Source: Candidatus Heimdallarchaeota archaeon (GTDB taxonomy: Archaea; Asgardarchaeota; Heimdallarchaeia; Hodarchaeales; Hodarchaeaceae). Taken from it: a DNA stretch of 64,000 nt. Below the pieces are notes generated by a model, which saw nothing but the letters and a program-made list of their open reading frames with translations, ran no database searches and had not been told where the DNA came from. Below, one piece after another: positions 16,966-35,352 of the stretch. How positions within the stretch are numbered: position 1 is the first letter of the stretch; each line of letters begins with the position of its first letter. Position numbers and translations under genes: made by a program. The stretch is taken from NCBI GenBank assembly GCA_020353515.1, contig CP070695.1, positions 2,422,966 through 2,486,965 of the forward strand, given 5' to 3'.

Positions 16966-19900
16966 TCAATGTCTTCTTCGCAAGAAAACAAGTACTGATA
17001 ATATAGCAAATCCTGCAATTAACGCTGTAAAGCCTGGTGTTGATACACTAGGACGCTCGATACTTGTGGTTGATGTGGATGGTTCAGGTTCTGTTGTGGT
17101 GGGAGCCGTAGTACCGTCAGGCTCAACTGGAATCGTAGTTGTAGGTTCTGGTTCAGGTATCTCAACCGTGAACCAAACACTTGTTTCCCCTGTATTTCCG
17201 ACGAGATCACTCGTATAGATAACAAGATAATGTGAACCTTCTGATAATGACCCTAGTAAAGTATTACCTGTGATAGTTATATTTGTGGCCCCATCCAGAG
17301 AGTACCCAATCCAGGAAGCGGGTTCGTCGATTGTAAAGTCAATCCAGACTTCATCTGTTGTATATGTGACATTCATCGGACCAGCTAGGTCAATATTTGG
17401 ATTAAGGGTGTCTATTGTAAACCAATCAACAGTAAAACTACCTGAATTTCCTGCAAGATCGTTGGTATAGATGGTAACATTATGGGTGCCTTCCGAAAGG
17501 GAGTCTAGTAACTTGTTTTCTGTAATTGTCACATTTGCAGCCCCATCGAGAGAATACCCAATCCACGAAGTGGGTTCATTCACAGTAAAGTTTAACCAAA
17601 TACTGGAGCTGGAATAACCTTGATTGGTAGGATTAGTAATGGTTATCTTAGGTGGATTAACGTCGTATTGACCCCATACTCGGAAGGAAAAATCAAACCC
17701 AGGATCTGATTCTTCTAAGCTACTGATTCCCCGATAATAATTGGAACTCACTCCAGGGATACCTCTCCAGTAATAACGATTTGCTGGTCCAGTAGATGGG
17801 GTATCAGTGCAAATGGAAATGTTGTAGGACTGACCAGCTATTAAGTGTAATGAACCAGGGATCGAGATATTCACCCAACCCAAAATGGTGATATCAGTTG
17901 GAAGTATCATTGTTTGCCATAGAATGTTTTGACCTTGTGATATATTAATCAAAACATTGCCAGGATCTCCATCTCTTGTGATATAAAGATCTAACCGTGT
18001 TAAGGTATCATAGACTGGGATAAATTCTTGCCAGCGGATTAAATCCTCATCAAGCATGACAGAAAGGCCTGTACTATCTTGGACTTGATCTAAATATGCA
18101 CTTCTATCGCAGAACAACCCTGTGGTCTTGAACGCATAGTCGAATGTAGGATTACTTGCCTGTTTATTAGTAATTCCCCGTGTATAATTAGATATTGGAT
18201 GGCCCATCCATAAATAATATTGGGTCAAAGGGATGTAGGGATCCTCACTCCGTACATAAATATAGTAAGAATTCTCTGGAATTAATGACAATGGCGCAGG
18301 GAAAGATATACTCACCCAACCTTCTGTCACAGGCATATCAGCTTCGAAGATAGTAGTAATCCAGAGTGTTGATTGATCATCAGTAATATTCACTAGGACA
18401 TTCCCAGGATCACCAATTCTTTTGAAGTAGAGGTCTAGTTGAGTTAACGTGGAATAATATGGTTTGAATTCTTGCCACGCATTCCAAGAATTACTAAAGA
18501 AATAACCTTCATCAATACTATCCTGGATTTGATCTGTAAACCCACTAAGATCACTCGATCGGATCCATGTCCGAAACGCGTAGTCATATGTAGGCCAACC
18601 TGACTGCACATTTGTATCACCTCGAGTATAATTGGATACAATGTGACCGCTCCAGGCATAATAATGTGTACCTGAAACCATAGGATCAACACTCCGAATA
18701 TAGATATAGTAGGAATTTCCAGGAATTAAAGGAAGAGCGGATAGGAAGGAAATACTCACCCAGCCACCTGGTGCTGGGATCTCCGCTTGGGAGACAGTGG
18801 TATTCCAAACAGTGGTCTGACCATCGGTAATATTCACCAAAACATTCCCTGGATCCCCCATTCTCTGGATATTGAGATCAAGTTGAGTTAACGGGGCAAA
18901 TAATGGTACAAATTCTTGCCATGCGTTCCATGAATCAGTAAAAGCAAAACCATAATTCACAGCTTCTTGTACTTGGTCTAGGTAAGTAGCTGTATCACTT
19001 GGAGTACTCCATGTTCTGAAAGCAAAGTCATATGTGGGCCAACCATCACCAACACTAGGCATTCCTCTATAATAATTGGACTTAATAAATCCCCTCCAGA
19101 CATACTGGTTGTCAACATCAGGAGAAGGAGCATCACTTCCAACAGAAATAAAATATGATTGTTCAGGAACCAAAGGGAGGGCAGGATCAACTGAAATGTT
19201 TATCCAACCAAAAGTGTTGATATCTGCTTCCAAGATGGTGGTATTCCAAAGCGTTCTGTGTCCATCACTTATTTTAATTTGCATATTCCCAGGATTGCCG
19301 TATTTGTTAATATAAAGATCCAAACGAGTCAGGGTTGAATATAAAGGCTTGAATTCTTGCCAGCGGATTACTTCAGCTTCAAACCAAAAGCCGTAATTAA
19401 CTCCGTTTTGTGTCTGGTCTAAATATATCTCTCTGTCATTTGATAGACTCCATGTCACAAAAGTAAAATCAAAATTAGGTTGAGTAGTGATGCTACTAAC
19501 TCCGCGTGTATAATTAGAGTTGAGATGCCCATCCCAAGTATATCGATCACTAGTGGATGTAGAATCTGTGTCACTCCTAACATAGATGTAATACAACCGC
19601 TCTGGGATTAAAGGAAGCGCTGATTCCAGAGTAATGTTCACCCAAGTAGCCCCACTCATAATATTTGCTTCCAATACAGTGGTGTTCCATAAGGATTGCT
19701 GGCCATCTGTAATGTTAACCAACATATTCCCAGGATTACCAATTTTATCAACATTAAGATCTAATCGAGTTAAAGTAGAATACATTGGTCTGAACTCCTG
19801 CCAGCGAATTACTGTGTCATCAAACCAATAACCATAGTTCTCGTCTCCCTGTGTTTGGTCTAGATCTTCACCTATCTCATAAGCTCCTGATGTTTGAAAT

Positions 19901-19986
19901 ATAAAAAAGCCTGATATAATCAGCAAGAACATTCCTAAAATTAAGAACATTGACTTTTTCTGTCTTTTAATAGTGAACATTATCAT
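16966..19986 (-). CDS. Secreted surface protein: five tandem ~150-aa beta-rich repeats, two Ig-like domains, Thr/Pro linker, PGF-type C-terminal sorting signal
   Basis: Signal peptide; repeat consensus LDQ.Q...WQEF.P...TLT.LDL...G.PGN...WV.IS...SYYI...SNY.RG...D.AF.TW; ends TPGFTALIAGFAILSVLVFLRRRH. Confidence 0.8.
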   Translation of the reverse strand: MIMFTIKRQKKSMFLILGMFLLIISGFFIFQTSGAYEIGEDLDQTQGDENYGYWFDDTVIRWQEFRPMYSTLTRLDLNVDKIGNPGNMLVNITDGQQSLWNTTVLEANIMSGATWVNITLESALPLIPERLYYIYVRSDTDSTSTSDRYTWDGHLNSNYTRGVSSITTQPNFDFTFVTWSLSNDREIYLDQTQNGVNYGFWFEAEVIRWQEFKPLYSTLTRLDLYINKYGNPGNMQIKISDGHRTLWNTTILEADINTFGWINISVDPALPLVPEQSYFISVGSDAPSPDVDNQYVWRGFIKSNYYRGMPSVGDGWPTYDFAFRTWSTPSDTATYLDQVQEAVNYGFAFTDSWNAWQEFVPLFAPLTQLDLNIQRMGDPGNVLVNITDGQTTVWNTTVSQAEIPAPGGWVSISFLSALPLIPGNSYYIYIRSVDPMVSGTHYYAWSGHIVSNYTRGDTNVQSGWPTYDYAFRTWIRSSDLSGFTDQIQDSIDEGYFFSNSWNAWQEFKPYYSTLTQLDLYFKRIGDPGNVLVNITDDQSTLWITTIFEADMPVTEGWVSISFPAPLSLIPENSYYIYVRSEDPYIPLTQYYLWMGHPISNYTRGITNKQASNPTFDYAFKTTGLFCDRSAYLDQVQDSTGLSVMLDEDLIRWQEFIPVYDTLTRLDLYITRDGDPGNVLINISQGQNILWQTMILPTDITILGWVNISIPGSLHLIAGQSYNISICTDTPSTGPANRYYWRGIPGVSSNYYRGISSLEESDPGFDFSFRVWGQYDVNPPKITITNPTNQGYSSSSIWLNFTVNEPTSWIGYSLDGAANVTITENKLLDSLSEGTHNVTIYTNDLAGNSGSFTVDWFTIDTLNPNIDLAGPMNVTYTTDEVWIDFTIDEPASWIGYSLDGATNITITGNTLLGSLSEGSHYLVIYTSDLVGNTGETSVWFTVEIPEPEPTTTIPVEPDGTTAPTTTEPEPSTSTTSIERPSVSTPGFTALIAGFAILSVLVFLRRRH

Positions 19987-25078: not shown

Positions 25079-26236
25079 TTAAGATACAGGTTTCCACAAA
25101 ATGCCAAGCTCTTCAGCTTTATCACGAGCTAGGGTCAATTCTTCAAAGGTAATCCCTCGATTGATTTCGTTAAACTTATCACTGTGCCTACGAACCTGAT
25201 GCATTGGCCGATATTGCCCCATTATATTAACCAACGCTTTTGGGACGTTTTTAGCACACCATTCTAAGATTGGGTAAGTATCAGCTTCTATTCGCCCTGG
25301 CATTACTAAATGTCGAATTACAATCTCACCAGATCCTTGATCGTGCGCCATTTTTATGTTCCGAGTAATTACTTCCCAATAATTTGGGATTTTGGACATC
25401 CGTTGAGCAAAATGGTTATCAGCGTATTTTAAATCAGGAAGCCAGAAATCCATGACTTCTAGCAAAAGTTTCATCCCCTCAATACTAAGATACATATTTG
25501 AATTCCATAATTGACAAATATTAACCTTGAAATCATGTAAAGAATACAGAATAACATGAAGGTTCGAGGTAGGATCACCACCAACCCAATTAATGTTCCG
25601 GGCTCCTTCACGTGCTAGTGCTCCTGCTATAAGGGCAATTTGTTGAGGAGTTCGATCAACCCCGTCAAGAATTTCCCCACTTTTTGTATCTCGCCATTCT
25701 TGACTTATGGAATGATTCTGACAAAAAACACATTTAAATGTGCATCCTGAGAAAAAAATTGTTCCTGAAGGTCTTAAGACTGTCTCTTCTCCTGTATGCA
25801 GAAAAGCAGAACTAACAATTGCATCCTTTCCTACTTTACAAACACCAAGTTCCCCAGTTTCACGATTTTTCTGACATTTACGCTCACAAAAACAACATTC
25901 TTTCAGCATCTCATTAGCAATTTTAATCTTCAAATCAAGAAAGGAAGGCTTTACTGATGCCGGAACTTTATTTGAGTGAACTCCTTGATCATATTCTGTT
26001 ATAAAGGATGAAAATTCTTGAGTCAATCGTTCGTGTTCTTGCCAGAGAGTAGATAAATCACTATTTAATTTGATATCTGTCGAAATTCCTTTTGCTAAAA
26101 GATAGCGTGCGATTTTTTCTTCTTTAATTAGTTGATAATAGCGGTTTAGGCGACTAACAACTTCAGGGATTTTCCATACAGAAACAGAATCAGGTCGTGT
26201 ACGCCACATTTTTCTCTGATATATTTTGAACCTCAC
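25079..26236 (-). CDS. PflX-like radical SAM protein (PFL-activating enzyme-related)
   Basis: CCFCERKC..NR...G.C, SGTIFFSGCTFKCVFCQN, NINWVGGDPT, WNSNMY, RHLVMPG, NIMGQYRP. Confidence 0.88.
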   Translation of the reverse strand: MRFKIYQRKMWRTRPDSVSVWKIPEVVSRLNRYYQLIKEEKIARYLLAKGISTDIKLNSDLSTLWQEHERLTQEFSSFITEYDQGVHSNKVPASVKPSFLDLKIKIANEMLKECCFCERKCQKNRETGELGVCKVGKDAIVSSAFLHTGEETVLRPSGTIFFSGCTFKCVFCQNHSISQEWRDTKSGEILDGVDRTPQQIALIAGALAREGARNINWVGGDPTSNLHVILYSLHDFKVNICQLWNSNMYLSIEGMKLLLEVMDFWLPDLKYADNHFAQRMSKIPNYWEVITRNIKMAHDQGSGEIVIRHLVMPGRIEADTYPILEWCAKNVPKALVNIMGQYRPMHQVRRHSDKFNEINRGITFEELTLARDKAEELGILWKPVS

Positions 26237-26309
26237 ATATTAAAAAATGTCTAGAAGATTATAGGATTCTATTCTGTGATAACCACATTTTCAAGAATGT
26301 ACAGACATT

Positions 26310-27101
26310 TTACAGAAATGTGAGTAAGAATAATGTTGAAATACCGACTAATATGAAAATTAAACCCATAGCAAATGTTAAAGTTGTTTCATTTAACCTG
26401 TTTGAAAATACGGAACCCACACTACCACTAATTACCGCCCCAATGCTAATAATCAATCCATATTCAAAATTAATGTATCCCTGAATTGAATACCCTATCA
26501 CACCTGAAAGAGCAATGATTGCCATGATCGCTGTCGCTGTCCCAACAGCAGTATGAGGGGGATACTGGAATATCACCAATAACACGAAAATTATCATCAT
26601 CCCGCCCCCTGCTCCAAATATTCCACTCATTAAACCGATAAATAATCCGATCGATGATATAACAATCTCTTTTTGCCGTTCTGACTGAAATATTACTTTT
26701 TGTGATCCTGTTTTTTCAGGAGTCTTTCGTTGTTTGAAACTCCTAAACAGGATGATTATCCCGATTCCAATGAAAATCAAGCAAACTAAATTACTTAAAG
26801 AAGCTTCACCTGTATTTACAGCCACTAGTACTCCTATTTGGGAACCCACTAAGGCAGTAATAATTAATAGGAGAGTAGCGCGTAAATCGACTTTTTCCTT
26901 ACGAAAAAAAGATATAGCAACAATGGTGGCACCAACCATATCAACGAATAAACTTGTTCCAATCGCAGAATAGATTGACGTTGAGTAGAATAGGAGGAGG
27001 ATAGGGACAACAAACACAGATCCGCTTACGCCAAGAAGACTGATAATAAGTCCCACAGCTAATCCTAATATCAAGAGGCTACTTAGAGTTAAGAAATCCA
27101 A
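26310..27101 (-). CDS. TauE/SafE family sulfite exporter
   Basis: About 8 TM; LLGVSGSVFVVP...AIGTSL and GIFGAGGG...AVGTA duplicated motifs. Confidence 0.85.
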   Translation of the reverse strand: MDFLTLSSLLILGLAVGLIISLLGVSGSVFVVPILLLFYSTSIYSAIGTSLFVDMVGATIVAISFFRKEKVDLRATLLLIITALVGSQIGVLVAVNTGEASLSNLVCLIFIGIGIIILFRSFKQRKTPEKTGSQKVIFQSERQKEIVISSIGLFIGLMSGIFGAGGGMMIIFVLLVIFQYPPHTAVGTATAIMAIIALSGVIGYSIQGYINFEYGLIISIGAVISGSVGSVFSNRLNETTLTFAMGLIFILVGISTLFLLTFL

Positions 27102-27114
27102 CGTTTTTCACCTC

Positions 27115-28101
27115 TCAGATCATTTCTGGATTGAGTGTTCGATTATCAAACTGAGTTTTCAACTTATTGTATTCCATACGACTAAATGGACACTCTTTAA
27201 TGCAAACAGAACATCCATGATAGTCTAAAAACACAGGAAAACAGTACTCATTTGTAATATGCGTCAATAGGCCATTTTCATGTAAAGTGGGTTCTTCTTG
27301 AATAGCAAATCCAGGGCATTTTCGGATGCAACGACCACACGTTTGACAAAAGTGTGCTATCCATTCGTGAGGATTTCCTTGCGCAATTGGTAAATTCTCA
27401 ATACTAGTGTAGATAGCTGTGAGTCTTACTCGTGGCCCGTTTTCAGGAGTGATTATTAAACCATGTCTCCCATGGTATCCAATTCCAGCAAGTTCTGCAA
27501 GAGGAGGATATAGTACTAAACCTCCCAACGGATGCCCTGCTTGAACAGAAAAACCTTCTTGTCTAAGAAATGTAGTCAAGCGATTTGATGTTTTACCAAG
27601 ATCATCATATGTTTGCATTATCATATAAGCTGTTTCTGAACTTGGTGCTTTCTCTATTTTATCTCTATCCATTTCCATTGAAAGAATGATGACATTTTCG
27701 TGTAAAACAGCCTTATCTTTAAAAATCAATTTTCTTGGCAGCTTTATATACCCGATTGACGAGATTCCTAGTGATTTTGCATAGTTCTCAAAGGCTTGAA
27801 GTTGTTCATCTGTAATCGTTTTTTTCGAAACAACAGGATTTTGATCAATTGTTGTTAATGATCTCTTGATATTCTTGATATTAGAGGGCATTACTCGCAT
27901 TGTTCGAAATGAAGTAATCGGAAGTCTAGAATAATGCTTTACACCTTCGAGTACTATATCAAATCGCTCTGGTGATTCCTTATTACTCTTGATAACATTT
28001 TTATGACTGCTAAACTTAGATTCTTTGTTTAAAATACTCTGAAATTGCCATGTGGCCAAAGAATTCACAAAAAAATTCATTAGTCTAGCTCTGATACCCA
28101 T
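27115..28101 (-). CDS. Reductive dehalogenase/QueG-like cobalamin 2x[4Fe-4S] protein
   Basis: AELAGIGYHGRHGLIITPENGPRVRLTAIYT, FCQTCGRCIRKCPG, GCSVCIKECPF. Confidence 0.8.
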   Translation of the reverse strand: MGIRARLMNFFVNSLATWQFQSILNKESKFSSHKNVIKSNKESPERFDIVLEGVKHYSRLPITSFRTMRVMPSNIKNIKRSLTTIDQNPVVSKKTITDEQLQAFENYAKSLGISSIGYIKLPRKLIFKDKAVLHENVIILSMEMDRDKIEKAPSSETAYMIMQTYDDLGKTSNRLTTFLRQEGFSVQAGHPLGGLVLYPPLAELAGIGYHGRHGLIITPENGPRVRLTAIYTSIENLPIAQGNPHEWIAHFCQTCGRCIRKCPGFAIQEEPTLHENGLLTHITNEYCFPVFLDYHGCSVCIKECPFSRMEYNKLKTQFDNRTLNPEMI

Positions 28102-28177
28102 ATCGGCACCTGAAACGAGATAACAATGCTGTTTTCATATCTATTTTGCAGAGTTTTTTAAATCACATTAAAAATTG

Positions 28178-28903
28178 TCATTCTATCATCTCATTGATTT
28201 GTTTTACAATCGCTGAGATCATGATATCAACAATTACTTTTCCTTTTTCTCGTGTTGCTACGGTGGGATCCCCCCAGATTCCAGTTGGAGAAAAATGACC
28301 ATCACCTTTTGGATCTCGTGTTAATCCTCTTCTATTTGGTCTCAAATCTAAATCTTTGACCGCTTTGGACATATCCACTGTATCAGGAGCTATGTGAAGC
28401 ATGATGGAAGTTTCTTCTTCATCAGCGTGAGATCCTCCCTCTTGAACAAGTAGATTATCGGGTAATTCTTTGGAGATGTCTAGGACATTGAAATACTTTA
28501 GAGTTATATTTTCCTCACCTAGGATCTTTGCTGCCTGTTCTAATGGCAGGAGAGTAGAAACTCCAGTGTTTAGTATGTAAAATTTCTTAATTCCATACAA
28601 ACTCATTGATTGACAAATCTCTACTACTATACTGCAGAAAGTTTCCTTTTTGAGTGTAATAGAGCCTGGATATTCTGTAAATGCGGGATAATACCCATAC
28701 TGTAGTGTTGGAAGCACAATTGTAGGAATTTTGTCTTTCACTTGTTCTTTAAGAAATTCTGCTAACAAGAAATCGTTATTCAGTTGTAAATGGGGCCCAT
28801 GTTCTTTGGTACGAGCTCCTAGAGCTATTAGAGCTACTTCATAGCTATTAATAGTTTCTTCTGCCTCAATCCATGTTAAGTTCTCTAATTCTATACTTTT
28901 CAT
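28178..28903 (-). CDS. Creatininase / creatinine amidohydrolase family protein
   Basis: LTW.E, KEHGPHL...D, YPGSITL, HADEEETS, SPTGIWGDPTVATREKG. Confidence 0.9.
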   Translation of the reverse strand: MKSIELENLTWIEAEETINSYEVALIALGARTKEHGPHLQLNNDFLLAEFLKEQVKDKIPTIVLPTLQYGYYPAFTEYPGSITLKKETFCSIVVEICQSMSLYGIKKFYILNTGVSTLLPLEQAAKILGEENITLKYFNVLDISKELPDNLLVQEGGSHADEEETSIMLHIAPDTVDMSKAVKDLDLRPNRRGLTRDPKGDGHFSPTGIWGDPTVATREKGKVIVDIMISAIVKQINEMIE

Positions 28904-29056
28904 CCCAATCTACTTCAATTTACTAATACATGATTTTTGATTAGATAGAAAGAGAGATAATCATTGCATATTAAGATTATTCTTGTCTTCTTAAAAGTAA
29001 TTTCTGATAAATCATCAAAGGAATAATGCATTTTCCTGAATTTTAAGGCGAAATTT

Positions 29057-29818
29057 ATGGAAGAAAAGAAAGAGAATACTTTTACTAGTCTTTTTGATGA
29101 TGCTAAAGCCGTAGATATTAGAGGATGGGACTTTTCTTACGTTAAGGAGAGGATGACTTCAGAACCTCTTCCTTGGGACTATAGAAAGATAATCCTTCCA
29201 TATGTAAAAAAAGCAAACTGCATGTTAGACATGGGTACTGGAGGAGGAGAATTTCTATCATCATTAGATCCATTACCAAAGGTTACATTTGCAACAGAAG
29301 CGTATCCCCCCAATATTCCTATTGCAAAAGAGACACTTGATGGCTATAACGTTAAATTAGTTCCAGTAACACAACACGAAAAACTACCTTTACCTGATGA
29401 TTTCTTTGATCTGATAATCAATCGTCATGAATACTATTGCCCAGAAGAAATATACAGAATACTTAAACCTCAAGGAATATTTATTACCCAACAAGTAGGA
29501 CGACTCAATAATATTGAATTAAATCGATTTTTTGGTGATGTGAGTTACAAAGATTGGGAATGGGATCTAAAATACGCATCACAACAATTGAAGACGAATG
29601 GATTCAGCATACTTAACAGTGAAGAAGCCACAATAAATGAATATTTTAGAGATATTGGAGCAGTAGTGTTTTATCTGCGTATAATCTCATGGCAGATCCC
29701 TAATTTCAATATTGATGAAAACATCAAGAAATTTAAGGAATTACATTCAATAATTCAGAAAGATGGACTATTCAAAACTCATGCTCATCGATTTTTGATT
29801 ATCGTAAAAAAAGAATGA
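29057..29818 (+). CDS. Class I SAM-dependent methyltransferase
   Basis: GWDFS, LDMGTGGGE, FDLIINRH, RILKPQGIFITQQVG. Confidence 0.9.
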   Translation: MEEKKENTFTSLFDDAKAVDIRGWDFSYVKERMTSEPLPWDYRKIILPYVKKANCMLDMGTGGGEFLSSLDPLPKVTFATEAYPPNIPIAKETLDGYNVKLVPVTQHEKLPLPDDFFDLIINRHEYYCPEEIYRILKPQGIFITQQVGRLNNIELNRFFGDVSYKDWEWDLKYASQQLKTNGFSILNSEEATINEYFRDIGAVVFYLRIISWQIPNFNIDENIKKFKELHSIIQKDGLFKTHAHRFLIIVKKE

Positions 29819-30038
29819 AATTAACAACATTAAGTTGAAAATACTGCATTTCCATTGATTTAATCTACAAATAGCTTTTGAAATCCCAGGAAAGGAGCCA
29901 CTGTTACATTAAAACGAGTTTTTCTTCTATATGCCTTTAAAATACAATAATCAGATTCTCTAATTTGGATAAATTCTTATATTCTCAATGTGATTATTTG
30001 TTTATCCAATAGTTATCTTGGAAAGGTGAAAATAACAA

Positions 30039-31109
30039 TTGGCTACAGTAACTTTATGCTGGCAAATCTCTAATATCCTTTTGTTATTCACCTTATTCAT
30101 AGCTGTCCTCGGCTTATTAAGTCGAATTCATTGGATTTCGATTGGTCGTATCAGTAGATATAATGTTTCTTTTTTATTATTTTATATATTTAGTATTTGT
30201 GCGATATTTTTGCAATGGTTAGTTATTAATGGTTCTTTGATGTTCTTGCCGTCTTCATCAACCTATACTTATATCGCTCTTTGGTTCAAGGGGGCCTTAT
30301 GTTCTTTAATCTTGTCCTCATTCTTTCTTATCTACATTGGTCAGCACAGTTTTGTGATTAGAAAATTTTCGACATAAAAATACTATTCACACTTTATCGC
30401 AGTATTTTATTTCTTTTGTATTGGAATCTTGATCTTTTTAATATTCACTGATGTAACAGTAATTGATATTATTGATAATAGCCCCTCGTTCGATTTTAAT
30501 CCTCCTATTACTCTTGTTTTAACTGCTTTATATGGCTCACTCAGTGGAGGATTGTTCGCTTTTATCTCATTGCGATCGAGAATCCGAACGTTTAAAGAAC
30601 CAGTTAAGGATTTAATACCAATATATCCATTTTATCTAGGGTTCACTTTAATTGGAGGATGTTGCCTCATATTTATTGGTTTCATTATAATTTTTGATCC
30701 AGTTCTAGGTTCTATGTGGCCATGCTTACGGATGTTCTTATCTTCCACTATCTATCTTATCTTCTTATGGTTTCCAACAATGGAATCAATGTTTGAGATC
30801 TTTTTTCAAAGCCGTATGGACAGAATTGAAACAGTACTGGGTAGGGACAAAGTATTAGACATTATCGATCACGATCTAGCTAATGTTACACAGATTCTCC
30901 ATACATATTTTGAAACAATTCAACTATCTGATCAGGAGAGAGAGTTTTTAAAGAAGCAAGTTGACCGCATGAACAAACTAATAACAGAATCACGAGCTAT
31001 AGTGATACACGAAGATGATATGTTAGTACAGGAATTAATGAGATTTTACAAATCAACACGTGTTCAAAACAATCTTTTAGATAAATCCAAAACAAAAAAA
31101 GAAGCCTAA
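30039..31109 (+). pseudogene. Multi-TM sensor-like protein with HisKA-like tail, interrupted by one in-frame TAA (30375-30377)
   Basis: ORFs 30039..30377 and 30429..31109 share a frame; the intervening codons are open and hydrophobic (KYYSHFIAVFYFFCIGI); C-term LDIIDHDLANVTQI resembles an H-box; GGTGA upstream. Confidence 0.7.
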
Positions 31110-31265
31110 AACCATTAATTTTCTGTACCGACTGGATTCTATAATACTTTCTTGCCATTTAATAGAATGGATGATTCATTGGGATTTGTAAATCCATTTA
31201 GTAAGGTTAAAAAATTCTTACTCATTTATTACATATTTTCATAAAAAACAGCAGGTGAATATTAG

Positions 31266-31886
31266 ATGAAAACAAATCAAGTAATAAAAATAATAATTCC
31301 ATTAGTACTCTTATTGGGTGCCGCTACTGCTTTTATTGTTGCGGTTATTGGTAGCCAGCAAGTGAATACTACAGCAGAGACTCAAGAGTCAAATCAAGCT
31401 ACTAGTGCCTACATAGCTTTCCTCTATATTGAAGGTGTTGATGGTGAAGCTCAAGCACAGGATCATGAAAATTGGATTGAGGTTCTTGCTTATTCCCATA
31501 ATGTTATGACCGCGGATCCAACAGGTGCAGTCCGCACTGCAGGCTCAGTACAGCACGCTCCACTTCGGATTACCAAAATGGTAGATAAGGCCTCACCTAA
31601 ACTGTACGAAAAGTGTGTTAACGGTGAAACGATCGTTTCAGTAAAACTGGATTGCTGCACAGCCTTTGGCGAAGACTTGAAAGTGTTCTATCAAATTGAA
31701 CTGCAGAATGCAATGATCACTTCAGCTCAAGATTTTGGTATAGTAGCAGGAGAAGGAATTCCTACTGAGACTGTTTCTTTCACATATGAATCCATTAGAT
31801 GGACATATTCGGAATTTGATGCTGCAGGTCAAAAAAAGGGAGATATACAAACACCTTGGATCTCCACAGAGACCTCAGAAACCTAA
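31266..31886 (+). CDS. hcp: Hcp (type VI secretion tube protein family) with N-terminal signal/anchor helix
   Basis: FLYIEGVDGEAQAQDHENWIEVLAYSH, ITKMVDKASPKLYEKC..GETI, FYQIELQNAMITS, PTETVSFTYESIRWTY; N-term MK..IIIPLVLLLGAATAFIVAVIG; GGTGA RBS upstream. Confidence 0.88.
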   Translation: MKTNQVIKIIIPLVLLLGAATAFIVAVIGSQQVNTTAETQESNQATSAYIAFLYIEGVDGEAQAQDHENWIEVLAYSHNVMTADPTGAVRTAGSVQHAPLRITKMVDKASPKLYEKCVNGETIVSVKLDCCTAFGEDLKVFYQIELQNAMITSAQDFGIVAGEGIPTETVSFTYESIRWTYSEFDAAGQKKGDIQTPWISTETSET

Positions 31887-31913
31887 TAAATCAAGAAAAA
31901 CCGTTGACCAATA

Positions 31914-32588
31914 ATGAAAAAGTCGAAGACTCCTTTTTTAATAGTCATATTCGCATTAGTCGGTTGTACCTTGAGCCCATCTATAGCTAATCAACAAACT
32001 ATCGACATTCTACAAGTAACGAAGATTGGTTCATCTGTCTCAATTTTTCTAGATTTTGATCTGAACTCAACCTCCCAGCTTGATTCAAATAAATCATTAG
32101 CAGTATTAGTCGTATTTACTCAAGATGAACCATTCGTAATTGAGGCAACGATGTTATTCTTCCATACAGTAGAAGAAGACTTCCTTTTCTGGATGCTTGG
32201 AGATCCCTATACTCAAGCCCAGATCTGGCAATTAGGTGTTGAAAATGAGCATTTTCAAACTCAAAATGAATTATTAACTTTGAATTTCATAGAATACCTT
32301 GGTATCACCAAACCCGAAATAAATCCTTTTGTGATAGCTTTAATCGCTTCAGGTGAAGTAAATAATCAGACAAATGATTTTAGACCAATTTTAGAGCAAT
32401 TTGTAATGTTTTTACCTATACATTATGAATTTCCAAGCATAGAGCAGCCAGGTACTACTGAAGAGACATCAGCTAAAAAATCGTCTCAAGGAAGCGTGGG
32501 TGGTCTTACACCAGGTTTTACAATCCTTTCTACTGTGGGTATCTTTCTTTCAACACTCATTGTACTAAGATTCAAACGGAAAAAGTGA
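31914..32588 (+). CDS. Secreted protein of unknown function with PGF-type C-terminal sorting signal
   Basis: N-terminal signal peptide; ends TPGFTILSTVGIFLSTLIVLRFKRKK after a Thr/Ser/Gly linker. Confidence 0.75.
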   Translation: MKKSKTPFLIVIFALVGCTLSPSIANQQTIDILQVTKIGSSVSIFLDFDLNSTSQLDSNKSLAVLVVFTQDEPFVIEATMLFFHTVEEDFLFWMLGDPYTQAQIWQLGVENEHFQTQNELLTLNFIEYLGITKPEINPFVIALIASGEVNNQTNDFRPILEQFVMFLPIHYEFPSIEQPGTTEETSAKKSSQGSVGGLTPGFTILSTVGIFLSTLIVLRFKRKK

Positions 32589-32642
32589 GAAATCAACATA
32601 AAAGGTACAAATAGTGAAAAATTGGCTAGTTTTAATAGCACG

Positions 32643-33473
32643 TCAGATATCGTGGTTCTTTCGAAGATAGCTAACTTCTCCCTCCTCTTTTTGATTGTGA
32701 TTTTTCCCATATTGTTTCATTAAGTACTTGTAGCTATACCAATACTGGAACCCAAGCTTTTCATATAACACAATTGCTTTCCTATTCTCTTTCTCAACAT
32801 GAAGCCAGCAGATAGTTGCACCATGATTTCTACCCCATTCTATAGCTTCAGTTAATAGAGAAAAACCAATTTTTTGTCTTCTATGATCAGGGTGAATGAA
32901 TAATTCAGCAATATAGAGGTATCCTTGGGGATCTAAAATAGCCATAACAGAACCAACAATAGAATTCTCTTTCTTTGCTAAAATAAAACGCTTTTTTGGA
33001 ATTTTAATTCGTTGTGTTACCTCAAGCATGATGTTTTGATCTTCAGTATAATTTGAGGAGAAAGTTGTCAAAAATTCAGAAAATTCAGAAGATTGTTCTT
33101 CAGTGACTTCATAAACAATTTCTTCATTCAGTTTAGTCTGTAATTCTTGAATTTCTAAACCCATAGTATTTATTGAGTAGTCACTATACATATAACCCCG
33201 ATTACGTAATTTTTCCTCAAGTTCTGAAGGATAAAAATAGGACGATAATTTGAATCTCGCTGGTAAGTTATATTTTCTATAAGCTGATTCCACAAAATCA
33301 ATATCTTTTTCTAAATTGATGCCAGTATACTTCACGGCTAAAACGGAGTTAGATCGACCAGTATTACCTCCAGTAAATGTTAAAATCCAACCATTCAAAA
33401 AAAAATAGTGTTTTGGAGGCCAGATGTTAAAAAATATCTTCTGATATTTTATTATCTCTTCTTTTGATAGCAT
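32643..33473 (-). CDS. GNAT acetyltransferase
   Basis: GWIL...G.TGRSNSV; IHPDHRRQKIG, WLHVEKENRKAIVLYEKLGF. Confidence 0.88.
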   Translation of the reverse strand: MLSKEEIIKYQKIFFNIWPPKHYFFLNGWILTFTGGNTGRSNSVLAVKYTGINLEKDIDFVESAYRKYNLPARFKLSSYFYPSELEEKLRNRGYMYSDYSINTMGLEIQELQTKLNEEIVYEVTEEQSSEFSEFLTTFSSNYTEDQNIMLEVTQRIKIPKKRFILAKKENSIVGSVMAILDPQGYLYIAELFIHPDHRRQKIGFSLLTEAIEWGRNHGATICWLHVEKENRKAIVLYEKLGFQYWYSYKYLMKQYGKNHNQKEEGEVSYLRKNHDI

Positions 33474-33811
33474 CAATCCCACTGATCTTTGGATCATATC
33501 ATTAGGCTAAAATAAGTAAAATGAGGAAGGAGAGATTCCATCTATTTATATAAAATTTCTAATGGGCAAAAAAGTTACAGGAATATTCTTTCAGGCCTAT
33601 TCATCTTTAACCTCTCTATGTGTGTTGAGAAAATCTCATGACTTAGTTATTTTTTGATTAGAATTCTTTCTCCCAATTCTTCCTCAATATAAGAACACGC
33701 TTAGGAAAGAAAAAAAATGAATTATTTAAAATAACCAGTAACCAATTTGATTTCATACTGGAAGATTTATAAGAATCATGGTTATTAAGTAGGTATCTAA
33801 AGAGGAAGTCC

Positions 33812-34342
33812 TTGAAGATGATAACAGTCACAAAGGAACAAAGGTTAGAAAATTATCCAATTAAAATTGTTTGTTCTTCGGTAACTCTAACAGTCATTAG
33901 TTATCTACTAGGTACACTTGTACTTTATGTTCTTCATCCATTTCTTGGAATTCTGTATCTCTTATTAGCAGTTTCTACAATTATTGTTAGTATGAAATTA
34001 AGGTGTTCGTATTGTTATTATCTTGGAAAGTACTGTAATTTTGGCCTGGGAAAACTTGCTGCTCTCTTTTTTAAAAAAGGAATTTCAAGAGAGTTTCAGA
34101 ATCCTAAAAAAGTCATTTCAACGGCTATATTGAGTTTTGGAACAATGCTACTCCCAGTAATTACAGGATTCGGGTTAATACTGTTTTCTTTTTCTCTAAT
34201 AAATTTTAGTCTTCTTTTGGTGTATATCTTATTTGGGATTTTACCAGGTTTTCTTGTCCGAGGTAATTTTTGTGATAAATGCATCCAAGGTCAGCTTGGT
34301 TGTCCAGCTTATCAGCAGATGATAAAAGGAAGGGAAAAATAA
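33812..34342 (+). CDS. 4-TM membrane protein with Cys motifs
   Basis: Four hydrophobic helices; CSYCYYLGKYC and CDKC...GCP. Confidence 0.65.
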   Translation: MKMITVTKEQRLENYPIKIVCSSVTLTVISYLLGTLVLYVLHPFLGILYLLLAVSTIIVSMKLRCSYCYYLGKYCNFGLGKLAALFFKKGISREFQNPKKVISTAILSFGTMLLPVITGFGLILFSFSLINFSLLLVYILFGILPGFLVRGNFCDKCIQGQLGCPAYQQMIKGREK

Positions 34343-34392
34343 AAGGATGACCTAAATTAATCCCCTTAGAATATCAAAGGAATTATTTTCAA

Positions 34393-35352
34393 ATGGAAAT
34401 ACTTGAATATGATGAAGTAGACCCTCTCGATGTTCTTCAACTGAATTTAATGGCATTGGATTTTGCATTAACCCCTGAGCGAGTGAAATTAATCCGTCAG
34501 TATGACACCCGTGCTTTTCCGTGTTTTGCAATCTATGCCAGTATTAATAATGTAATCACAGGCCAGGTTGGCCTTTTTCGCTTACCCATGGTATCTATAA
34601 ATGGACCAGAAGATGTGGGTGGGGTCTGGGCGGTCTCTACACATCCTGAATATAAACGTAAAGGGATTGCAACGCGTTTATTAAATGAAGCTCATGAACG
34701 GATGCGAACAGAAGGATTGAGATTTTCTACTCTCGGAACTTCATCTTTTCGATTAGCTTACTCATTATACCTGAAATGTGGTTATCAGGATGTTTTCTCC
34801 TCAACATCAATATTACTGCCTCAAAAATTAATCCCAAGTTCATTTATTTTTACTACCGAACAAGCTTCACAAGACAACTTACATCTTGCGGATTCCTTTT
34901 TTTCGAAAGTATCCAAGGGAGCCTTAGGTTTTTCCCATCGTTTTGATGGCTTTCTCTCGACCATGTGTCGGATTGGTGAGATAGCAATGGGACCGATCTC
35001 AGAACATAGTGTATGGTTTATTAATAATGAAGGTAGATTGGTCGGGTACGCAATTGTATCTGTCGCAGGCTCTATCCTCAAAATTCATGACATTCTTCTC
35101 GCAAGTGAAGTATCAGTGGTTGACGCGCTTCCCGCTTTAATTCAAAATCTCCCATGTTCCTATGTTCATATTAAGTCAACTCACTCCTCGGTTACAAGAA
35201 GTTTAATCCGACTAGGAGGCCGCGTTGTTCCTCAAGATTGGAGTACATTCATGATAAAATCACTAACAAAGGATGTGATGAAACTCGATCTAAAGAGTCA
35301 CTTCGGTATTGGAACAGATAAATTCTTGTTCTCATGGCTAGATAGTACATAA
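34393..35352 (+). CDS. GNAT acetyltransferase (Eis-like N-terminal domain)
   Basis: VGGVWAVSTHPEYKRKGIATRLL, AYSLYLKCGY. Confidence 0.85.
   Translation: MEILEYDEVDPLDVLQLNLMALDFALTPERVKLIRQYDTRAFPCFAIYASINNVITGQVGLFRLPMVSINGPEDVGGVWAVSTHPEYKRKGIATRLLNEAHERMRTEGLRFSTLGTSSFRLAYSLYLKCGYQDVFSSTSILLPQKLIPSSFIFTTEQASQDNLHLADSFFSKVSKGALGFSHRFDGFLSTMCRIGEIAMGPISEHSVWFINNEGRLVGYAIVSVAGSILKIHDILLASEVSVVDALPALIQNLPCSYVHIKSTHSSVTRSLIRLGGRVVPQDWSTFMIKSLTKDVMKLDLKSHFGIGTDKFLFSWLDST

What the first reader, a model, noticed from the sequence alone, without database searches (positions are those of the whole stretch)
31266..32588. Orphan T6SS Hcp tube protein with a signal/anchor helix, paired with a PGF-CTERM surface protein, in an archaeon
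Seen: a clear Hcp-family sequence preceded by a basic-hydrophobic N-terminal helix and a polar linker, and 27 nt downstream a secreted protein with a TPGF-TM-basic tail. No sheath (TssB/C), VgrG, baseplate or ClpV genes lie anywhere in the window. Established: canonical Hcp is cytoplasmic, has no Sec signal and stacks as hexameric rings inside a contractile sheath. Inference: a domesticated Hcp exported by Sec to form extracellular rings, tubes or filaments, or a membrane-tethered ring, possibly anchored or capped by the neighbouring sortase-type protein. This would be an undescribed surface appendage or channel.
Basis: partly seen in the sequence, partly recalled or inferred. Interest (0 to 1): 0.85.

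Follow-up and report, generated by a model that had tools for sequence, protein, structure and literature searches.

The report
Exported Hcp with anchored surface partner
An Asgard archaeon with no injection machinery encodes a true copy of the bacterial type VI "syringe tube" protein Hcp behind an unusually conserved membrane-export helix, always followed by one orphan surface-anchored protein, so the tube fold seems reused as a two-protein cell-surface device whose job is unknown.

Summary
ORF 31266-31886 (+) is a full-length Hcp (PF05638, E 1e-36; the model matches solved Hcp1 structures) preceded by a 29-residue basic-hydrophobic helix and a disordered polar linker. ORF 31914-32588 (+), 27 nt downstream, has a signal peptide, an orphan beta-sandwich domain, a Thr/Ser-rich linker and a PGF-TM-basic tail. 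That tail matches NCBIfam Heimdall-CTERM, not Pfam PGF-CTERM.

The single-contig 4.94 Mb genome has no TssC, phage-type sheath, gp19 tube, VgrG, baseplate J or PAAR gene. None of 400 Asgard genomes has TssC. The pair is a conserved module: 23 of 24 partner copies lie directly downstream of an Hcp, in the same 17 of 21 family genomes, and diverged homologous pairs occur in other Asgard classes.

New here: the Hcp leader is as conserved as the Hcp domain (0.55 vs 0.53 identity). The partner's signal peptide (0.25) and the Hcp leaders of another Asgard class (0.28) drift normally. The leader profile matches nothing else in the genome. This favours a retained membrane anchor over a discarded signal.

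Ring assembly and Hcp-partner binding are inferred, not shown. The scan reported this pair before on other Asgard genomes. I found no paper describing it.

The parts
31253..31257 (+). GGTGA Shine-Dalgarno-like motif 8 nt upstream of the Hcp ATG
   Evidence: Read directly from the sequence
31266..31886 (+). Hcp-family gene, 206 aa
   Evidence: PF05638 E 1.2e-36; TIGR03344 88.4 bits. It is the only Hcp in the genome
31266..31352 (+). Leader, aa 1-29: basic n-region (K2, K8) and a 21-residue hydrophobic helix with invariant G18
   Evidence: AF2 helix 3-29. Mean pairwise identity 0.55-0.60, equal to the domain. pN 0.29. The leader profile hits only this gene in the genome
31353..31409 (+). Polar c-region and linker, aa 30-48. 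It includes the conserved QQ-[VA]-N-[TA]-[ST] motif, which could be a signal-peptidase -3/-1 site or an N-glycosylation sequon
   Evidence: Alignments A1 and A4. pLDDT below 50. An N-X-S/T sequon is present in 28 of 37 members
31413..31850 (+). Hcp beta-barrel domain, aa 50-195
   Evidence: pLDDT above 90. Foldseek to 4W64/1Y12/7FCF at E 1e-13 to 1e-14. PDB profile search: 7FCF 130 bits
31887..31913 (+). 27-nt intergenic spacer. No terminator-like site was found in 31000-32800
31914..32588 (+). Partner gene, 224 aa, from an orphan family whose named members are all from Asgard MAGs
   Evidence: No Pfam match. 41 homologues. Adjacent to Hcp in 23 of 24 copies
31914..31991 (+). Partner signal peptide, aa 1-26 (variable h-region, ...SIA then NQ)
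   Evidence: Alignment A2. Identity 0.25 against 0.56 for its domain
31992..32429 (+). Partner beta-sandwich domain, aa 27-172, with invariant D47, F82, W93, G96, W105, G108, E127, F163
   Evidence: AF2 pLDDT about 80-90. Invariant columns of A3. Only generic Ig-like structural matches, Z <= 5.6
32430..32507 (+). Disordered Thr/Ser/Glu-rich stalk, aa 173-198
   Evidence: pLDDT 32-46. Variable-length T/S-rich insertions in A2
32508..32585 (+). Heimdall-CTERM sorting signal: TPGF, TM helix, RFKRKK
   Evidence: NF045529: 25.7 bits in the genomic frame, over the cut-off, at window 32508-32582; 21.6 bits on the protein. AF2 helix 207-222

Best explanation
The two genes form a conserved, probably co-transcribed module that builds a cell-surface complex unrelated to any contractile injection system. 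Hcp is inserted or exported through the Sec pathway by its N-terminal helix, N-in and C-out by the positive-inside rule. In this family the helix most likely stays in the mature protein as a membrane anchor. The Hcp domain is then held on a roughly 18-residue flexible tether just outside the membrane, where it probably assembles into the hexameric ring typical of the fold. The partner is exported by an ordinary cleaved signal peptide. It is displayed on a Thr/Ser-rich (probably glycosylated) stalk and fixed to the membrane through its Heimdall-CTERM signal by one of the genome's three archaeosortase-family enzymes. By analogy with T6SS Hcp rings, which hold cargo in their 40 A lumen, I infer that the Hcp ring binds or organises the partner's roughly 17 kDa beta-sandwich domain. 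Shown: family and fold, the translated conserved leader, absence of T6SS/CIS, conserved gene pairing, and presence of the sorting signal and sortases. Inferred: topology, anchor retention, ring formation, Hcp-partner contact and the final biological role (adhesion, envelope organisation or virus interference).
For: Hcp identity and fold. Leader is translated and conserved: SD-like motif, pN 0.29 vs 0.31 for the domain, alignments. Leader behaves unlike a disposable signal: h-region identity 0.55 vs domain 0.53, against 0.25 vs 0.56 for the partner's signal peptide in the same genomes and 0.28 vs 0.50 for Hcp leaders of another Asgard class. G18 is invariant. The leader profile hits only Hcp in the 4.94 Mb genome, 70.8 bits vs 10. 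No injection machine: TssC, Phage_sheath_1, gp19 tube, Phage_GPD, Baseplate_J and PAAR are all absent, and TssC is in 0 of 400 Asgard genomes. Module conservation: Hcp is followed by the partner in 7 of 7 fetched loci whose other neighbours differ. The partner occurs in the same 17 of 21 family genomes as Hcp, with 23 of 24 copies directly downstream and whole pairs duplicated in 4 genomes. Diverged homologous pairs occur in other classes (56, 58; hhalign 99.3%, E 2e-20). Partner sorting: Heimdall-CTERM over the cut-off, one of about 30 such proteins in the genome, plus three TIGR04178 archaeosortase-family genes. N-terminal appendages are compatible with Hcp1 rings: in the engineered fusions 4KSS, 7O42 and 6AP1 (six chains each) Hcp1 is the C-terminal part. 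Rings outside T6SS are plausible: 22 of 44 multi-domain relatives have exactly six tandem Hcp domains, some with Ig-like, Calx-beta or dockerin domains. Cargo-in-lumen precedent: 10.64898/2026.06.15.732508.
Against: No experiment or model here shows ring assembly, membrane retention or Hcp-partner contact. A conserved [AVT]-x-[ATS] motif 5-7 residues after the helix fits the signal peptidase -3/-1 rule, so the leader may be cleaved. Orthologues in another class carry ordinary short signal peptides, so anchoring cannot be essential to the family's basic function. In a sister family, Hcp is followed by large Kelch- or beta-helix-type secreted proteins instead of this partner, so the partner is not an obligatory companion. 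The partner's fold is a generic beta-sandwich and gives no functional clue. No expression data could be obtained.
Confidence: 0.55

Rival explanations
1. The leader is an ordinary Sec signal peptide that is cleaved. Hcp is released as a soluble extracellular ring or monomer that acts in the medium or loosely on the envelope, with or without the partner.
For: The conserved small-x-small motif (V-N-A/T then S/T) lies 5-7 residues after the hydrophobic core. Orthologues in another Asgard class have classical short signal peptides with VQA or VIA sites. 107 of the 163 closest single-domain relatives carry a hydrophobic N-terminal segment, many of them signal-peptide-like.
Against: The h-region is 21 residues long. 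It is as conserved as the Hcp domain, unlike the partner's signal peptide in the same genomes (42), and it is unique in the genome (73). That degree of constraint is not expected for a discarded peptide.
Confidence: 0.3
2. The pair is a surface defence or interference device. A tail-tube-like ring on the membrane, with a variable beta-sandwich partner, blocks or decoys tailed viruses or foreign injection machines.
For: Hcp is homologous to phage tail tube proteins (established knowledge). The module sits in different chromosomal contexts, once beside an IS605/TnpB gene (18), and is duplicated in some genomes (54).
Against: No defence genes are consistently nearby. The pair is nearly fixed in one family (17 of 21), more like a housekeeping envelope component. 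No PADLOC search was run.
Confidence: 0.08
3. The gene is an inert relic of a horizontally acquired bacterial T6SS or prophage tail gene, or an assembly contaminant.
For: Hcp is otherwise a bacterial family. Canonical bacterial Hcps are 35-40% identical (11).
Against: The genome is a single contig and the flanks are archaeal. The gene is intact and under purifying selection. It is conserved with its partner across several Asgard classes. The clade is monophyletic with SH-aLRT 93.
Confidence: 0.02

Closest known systems
Hcp/TssD, the inner tube protein of bacterial type VI secretion (P. aeruginosa Hcp1 PA0085, PDB 1Y12; A. baumannii Hcp1 4W64; 7FCF)
   Same: Full-length match to PF05638 and TIGR03344. 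Same beta-barrel fold, target-normalised TM-score 0.77-0.91. Canonical motifs are kept (G60-E61, S77-H78, K104/D107/P111 helix, P166-E168).
   Different: It has a conserved N-terminal hydrophobic helix and linker. It is encoded in archaea with no sheath, VgrG, baseplate or PAAR. It is paired with a surface-anchored protein. Canonical Hcp is leaderless and cytoplasmic, and it leaves the cell only by sheath contraction.
Hcp-cargo pairs of T6SS (Hcp1 with Tse1, Tse2, Tse4)
   Same: An Hcp gene sits next to a small partner whose globular domain (about 17 kDa) would fit a 40 A lumen. Hcp acts as a scaffold and chaperone for cargo (10.64898/2026.06.15.732508).
   Different: Here both proteins carry their own export signals, and the partner is tethered by a C-terminal sorting signal. 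No toxin or immunity features were found. Binding is not shown.
Engineered Hcp1 hexamerisation fusions (GspE-Hcp1 4KSR/4KSS, TrwK-Hcp1 7O42, Vps4-Hcp1 6AP1)
   Same: Hcp1 carries a large N-terminal appendage, and the fusion entries 4KSS, 7O42 and 6AP1 hold six chains each. This shows an N-terminal extension need not block ring assembly.
   Different: They are artificial soluble fusions, not a natural membrane helix.
PGF-CTERM / archaeosortase A sorting of Haloferax surface glycoproteins
   Same: The C-terminal signal has three parts (short motif, TM helix, basic tail) after a Thr/Ser-rich stalk. Archaeosortase-family genes are present.
   Different: The tail matches the Heimdall-CTERM model, not Pfam PGF-CTERM. 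The cognate enzyme and the chemistry are unknown in Asgard.
Leader-bearing (exported) Hcps of bacteria and other archaea, and six-fold tandem Hcp proteins
   Same: They have the Hcp domain behind a hydrophobic N-terminal segment (107 of 163 closest relatives). Six Hcp domains in one chain occur with extracellular-type domains.
   Different: These are uncharacterised metagenomic proteins. This partner family was found only next to Asgard Hcps.

Membership tests
Hcp / TssD protein family (PF05638, TIGR03344) | Profile match above the curated cut-offs over the whole domain | tested here: met
   PF05638 126.3 bits (cut-off 23.5), positions 1-129 of 129; TIGR03344 88.4 bits (cut-off 58.9)
Hcp / TssD protein family (PF05638, TIGR03344) | Hcp beta-barrel fold | tested here: met
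   AF2 domain pLDDT above 90. Foldseek to 4W64, 3EAA, 7FCF and 1Y12 at E 1e-13 to 1e-14, probability 1.00
Hcp / TssD protein family (PF05638, TIGR03344) | Assembly into hexameric rings | not testable with these tools
The only support is indirect: N-terminal fusions to Hcp1 and six-domain relatives
T6SS inner tube (functional TssD) | Leaderless cytoplasmic protein | tested here: not met
   A conserved, translated N-terminal hydrophobic helix is present
T6SS inner tube (functional TssD) | Co-occurrence with sheath TssB/C, VgrG, baseplate and PAAR | tested here: not met
   No PF05943, PF04984, PF05954, PF04865 or PF05488 in the 4.94 Mb single-contig genome. PF05943 is in 0 of 400 Asgard genomes
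eCIS / phage tail tube (Phage_T4_gp19, PF06841) | gp19-type tube and phage-type sheath genes | tested here: not met
   No match in the genome
Heimdall-CTERM sorted surface proteins (NF045529), partner | C-terminal motif, TM helix and basic tail matching the model, at the extreme C-terminus | tested here: met
   25.7 bits in the genomic frame (cut-off 24) at window 32508-32582. Borderline at 21.6 bits on the protein alone. TPGF, helix 207-222, RFKRKK
Heimdall-CTERM sorted surface proteins (NF045529), partner | N-terminal signal peptide and a cognate sortase-family enzyme in the genome | tested here: met
   A signal peptide is present across the family. Three TIGR04178 exosortase/archaeosortase-family genes are over the cut-off. 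Which one is cognate is unknown
Heimdall-CTERM sorted surface proteins (NF045529), partner | Actual cleavage and lipid attachment | not testable with these tools
   Needs biochemistry
PGF-CTERM (Pfam PF18204), partner | Profile match | tested here: not met
   The Pfam scan at E <= 0.1 returned no family for the partner, although the letters PGF are present
Type IV pilin-like proteins (class III signal peptide), Hcp leader | [KR]-[GA] cleavage site directly before the conserved hydrophobic helix | tested here: not met
   In 37 aligned leaders the helix is preceded by x-[RK] with I, V, A or T before it, and no G or A at -1
Lipoprotein (lipobox), partner | Conserved L-x-[GA]-C at the end of the signal peptide | tested here: not met
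   The window protein has LVGC, but the Cys is absent from the other seven aligned partners

The most novel reading that the evidence does not exclude
In this Asgard family the Hcp leader is a permanent transmembrane anchor. Six anchored subunits form a membrane-tethered ring that cages or organises the sortase-anchored beta-sandwich partner. That would be a new class of archaeal surface complex derived from a phage-tail/T6SS tube protein. It would be part of a wider, undescribed world of Sec-exported Hcp rings that also includes single-chain six-domain Hcp proteins in bacteria.
Probability: 0.3. Interest if true: 0.8.

Novelty: new variant of a known kind. Interest (0 to 1): 0.62.

Why it matters
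Hcp is treated as a marker of type VI secretion, and annotation pipelines label these archaeal genes "type VI secretion system effector". Here the fold works in organisms that cannot have that machine. It is exported by the general pathway and locked to a dedicated surface partner. If rings form on the Asgard cell surface, this is a clear case of a contractile-machine part being reused as an envelope component, in the archaeal lineage closest to eukaryotes, whose surface biology is almost unknown. It also warns against inferring T6SS from Hcp hits. It points to a large uncharacterised population of exported and six-fold tandem Hcps. The pair is small and soluble-domain-based, so the ring and binding questions can be tested directly by recombinant expression.

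Tried and rejected
- **Complex prediction.** Hcp domain (47-206) with partner domain (27-172), both with alignments, gave no verdict (score 0.01, mark 0.32). This is neither support nor evidence against binding. A ring-plus-partner model could not be run.
- **Partner fold.** Foldseek against PDB gave nothing at E <= 0.001. VIA-align wide gave a best Z of 5.6 to antibody-like Ig domains, within the tool's noise range. ESM Atlas by shape gave TM-scores below 0.5, and by features gave no usable hit.
- **Exosortase Pfam PF09721.** No hit in the genome, but its control missed Haloferax ArtA, so I repeated the search with TIGR04178, which found three genes.
- **Literature.** No paper in the library combines Hcp, Asgard and type VI secretion. 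None mentions Heimdall-CTERM. None describes signal-peptide or tandem Hcps.
- **Rejected readings.** An internal start after the helix; a class III pilin-type signal; a lipobox as a family feature of the partner; the upstream 7TM/HisKA-like ORFs as part of the module, because they are absent from the other loci; a channel, because six single helices cannot line a ring-sized pore (inference).
- **Tree.** The careful tree search did not finish, so only the quick IQ-TREE result is used. Deep branches are weak, and no donor lineage is claimed.

Full report
**Observation**

The window holds two adjacent plus-strand ORFs, 31266-31886 (206 aa) and 31914-32588 (224 aa), separated by 27 nt.

The first ORF is a genuine Hcp:
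- It matches Pfam T6SS_HCP over the whole profile (E 1.2e-36, aa 52-181) and TIGR03344 at 88.4 bits.
- An AlphaFold2 model built on 37 relatives shows an N-terminal helix (aa 3-29), a disordered stretch (30-46) and a confident beta-barrel with pLDDT above 90.
- That model matches solved Hcp1 structures (4W64, 3EAA, 7FCF, 1Y12) at E 1e-13 to 1e-14. A profile search of PDB sequences agrees (7FCF 130 bits, 1Y12 91 bits).

The second ORF has no Pfam family. It has a signal peptide, a beta-sandwich domain (aa 27-172, pLDDT about 80-90), a disordered Thr/Ser-rich stretch and a C-terminal TPGF, helix and RFKRKK tail. That tail matches NCBIfam Heimdall-CTERM at 21.6 bits on the protein and 25.7 bits in the genomic frame, against a cut-off of 24.

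**Is the leader real?**

- A GGTGA motif lies 8 nt upstream of the ATG at 31266.
- Across eight loci, the leader codons show non-synonymous divergence like the Hcp domain (pN 0.29 vs 0.31) while synonymous sites are near saturation. The linker is looser (pN 0.51).
- The only start-type codon after the helix is GTG at codon 33. That codon is GTG in only 2 of 7 homologous loci.

The helix is therefore translated and selected.

**Is a contractile machine present?**

The genome is one contig of 4.94 Mb and 96% complete. It has a single Hcp and none of the following:
- TssC/VipB
- Phage_sheath_1
- gp19-type tube
- Phage_GPD/VgrG
- Baseplate_J
- PAAR

None of 400 genomes of the same phylum has TssC. 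Named homologues come from Promethearchaeota, Hodarchaeales and Heimdallarchaeota MAGs, and flanking genes in related loci are archaeal.

**The pair is a conserved module**

- In seven fetched loci, Hcp is always followed within about 10-115 nt by a homologue of the partner, while the other neighbours differ.
- In the phylum survey, Hcp occurs in 26 of 400 genomes: 17 of 21 in the window's family, and patchily in three other families.
- The partner is found in exactly the same 17 of 21 family genomes. The four that lack both are 71-88% complete.
- Of 24 partner matches, 23 lie directly downstream of an Hcp match on the same strand. This includes second, divergent pairs in four genomes and one genome of another class.
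- Hcps of that other class, and of one further family, are also followed by 226-268 aa proteins with a signal peptide and a (P)GF-type, TM and basic tail. A profile-profile comparison shows these are homologous to the window's partner family (probability 99.3%, E 2e-20).
- In a sister family, the gene that starts 4 nt or 21 nt after Hcp encodes a much larger signal-peptide protein with Kelch or beta-helix-like repeats plus Ig-like repeats.

The general theme is an exported Hcp coupled to an exported surface protein.

**New point: the leader is not an ordinary signal peptide in this family**

| Segment compared | Leader identity | Domain identity |
|---|---|---|
| Hcp, 37 family members (hydrophobic core) | 0.55 | 0.53 |
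| Partner signal peptide, same genomes | 0.25 | 0.56 |
| Hcp, four genomes of another Asgard class | 0.28 | 0.50 |

- G18 in the middle of the helix is invariant.
- A profile of the leader finds only Hcp itself in the whole genome (70.8 bits, next best 10), so it is not a shared sorting tag.
- Charges fit an N-in, C-out orientation: K2 and K8 lie before the helix, E38 and E41 after it.

Against retention, a conserved [AVT]-x-[ATS] motif followed by S or T lies 5-7 residues after the helix. It fits the signal-peptidase -3/-1 rule and, in 28 of 37 members, also forms an N-X-S/T sequon. I therefore favour a retained anchor but cannot exclude cleavage.

**Sorting of the partner**

About 30 proteins in the genome pass the Heimdall-CTERM cut-off. 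Three exosortase/archaeosortase-family genes are present. The partner's domain has only generic Ig-like structural neighbours (best Z 5.6; Atlas TM-scores below 0.5), so its fold gives no function.

**Wider context**

- An exhaustive search finds 6653 relatives.
- Of the 163 closest single-domain relatives, 107 have a hydrophobic segment before the Hcp domain and 44 are canonical leaderless forms.
- In a quick maximum-likelihood tree, the Asgard pair clade holds together (SH-aLRT 93) with two subclades (95 each). Its nearest outside neighbours are mostly leader-bearing. Deep branches are weak and the root is arbitrary.
- Of 44 multi-domain relatives, 22 have exactly six Hcp domains. Some also carry Ig-like, Calx-beta or dockerin domains. 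This suggests single-chain rings outside the cell.
- In the engineered fusions 4KSS, 7O42 and 6AP1, Hcp1 is the C-terminal part of chains deposited six to an entry. An N-terminal appendage is therefore compatible with ring assembly.

**Mechanism proposed**

Hcp is Sec-inserted and probably anchored, then forms a ring just outside the membrane. The partner is exported, stalked and sortase-anchored beside it. By analogy with cargo held in the 40 A lumen of T6SS Hcp rings (10.64898/2026.06.15.732508), the ring binds or organises the partner's roughly 17 kDa domain. Ring formation, contact and biological role are inferences.

**Novelty**

Pipelines already label the gene as Hcp, so family membership is not new. 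The Sec-exported, partner-coupled, T6SS-free use is not described in any paper I could find. Earlier reports of this scan reached the same basic reading on other Asgard genomes. This report adds:
- the leader-conservation contrast and its uniqueness in the genome
- the exact co-occurrence count
- the homology of diverged partners in other classes
- the alternative large partners in a sister family
- the presence of archaeosortase genes
- the six-domain relatives

Noticed in passing
Proteins P0062-P0076 and others; L010:8001-14495: Long proteins (970-2164 aa) with exactly six tandem Hcp domains (22 of 44 multi-domain relatives). Some also have Big_13, Calx-beta or dockerin domains, and several have an N-terminal LExRxLLA-like motif that I recall, unchecked, from planctomycete secreted proteins. 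They may be single-chain Hcp rings on exported proteins. I found no paper on them.
   Followed up: partly
Proteins, analysed: Of the 163 closest single-domain Hcp relatives, 107 carry a hydrophobic N-terminal segment before the Hcp domain. Leader-bearing Hcps are therefore a large, clustered population and not an oddity.
   Followed up: partly
L016:179-2798 and L019:707-3301 (Asgard genomes G051, G049): In a sister family, the signal-peptide Hcp is followed 4 nt or 21 nt later by a secreted protein of over 650 aa (Kelch propeller plus Ig-like repeats, or NosD-like beta-helix plus Ig-like repeats) instead of the small partner.
   Followed up: partly
L002:6618-6943; G065:C1:1008590-1009054: In the closed Heimdall-type genome CP070760.1, the partner next to Hcp stops after 108 aa. 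A piece matching its C-terminal half lies about 1.36 Mb away. A second intact Hcp-partner pair exists at C1:506830-507917.
   Followed up: no
G071:C12:165621-166313: The partner copy in this related genome has one in-frame TAA, which may indicate a pseudogene or a sequencing error.
   Followed up: no
window 30039-31109 (+): Two membrane-protein ORFs lie in the same frame, separated by a single TAA at 30375-30377. The second has a weak SpoOB/HisKA-like helical match. This gene is absent from the otherwise syntenic locus L004, so it is not part of the Hcp module.
   Followed up: no
window 16966-19986 (-): This 1006-aa ORF ends in a sub-threshold Heimdall-CTERM match (22.6 bits, window about 16972-17040), so it is another probable sorted surface protein in the window.
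   Followed up: no
window 25079-35352 vs L004: Synteny with a 57%-identical relative runs radical SAM, TauE, creatininase, methyltransferase, Hcp, partner, GNAT (opposite strand), GNAT. Only the Hcp-partner pair persists in more distant genomes.
   Followed up: partly
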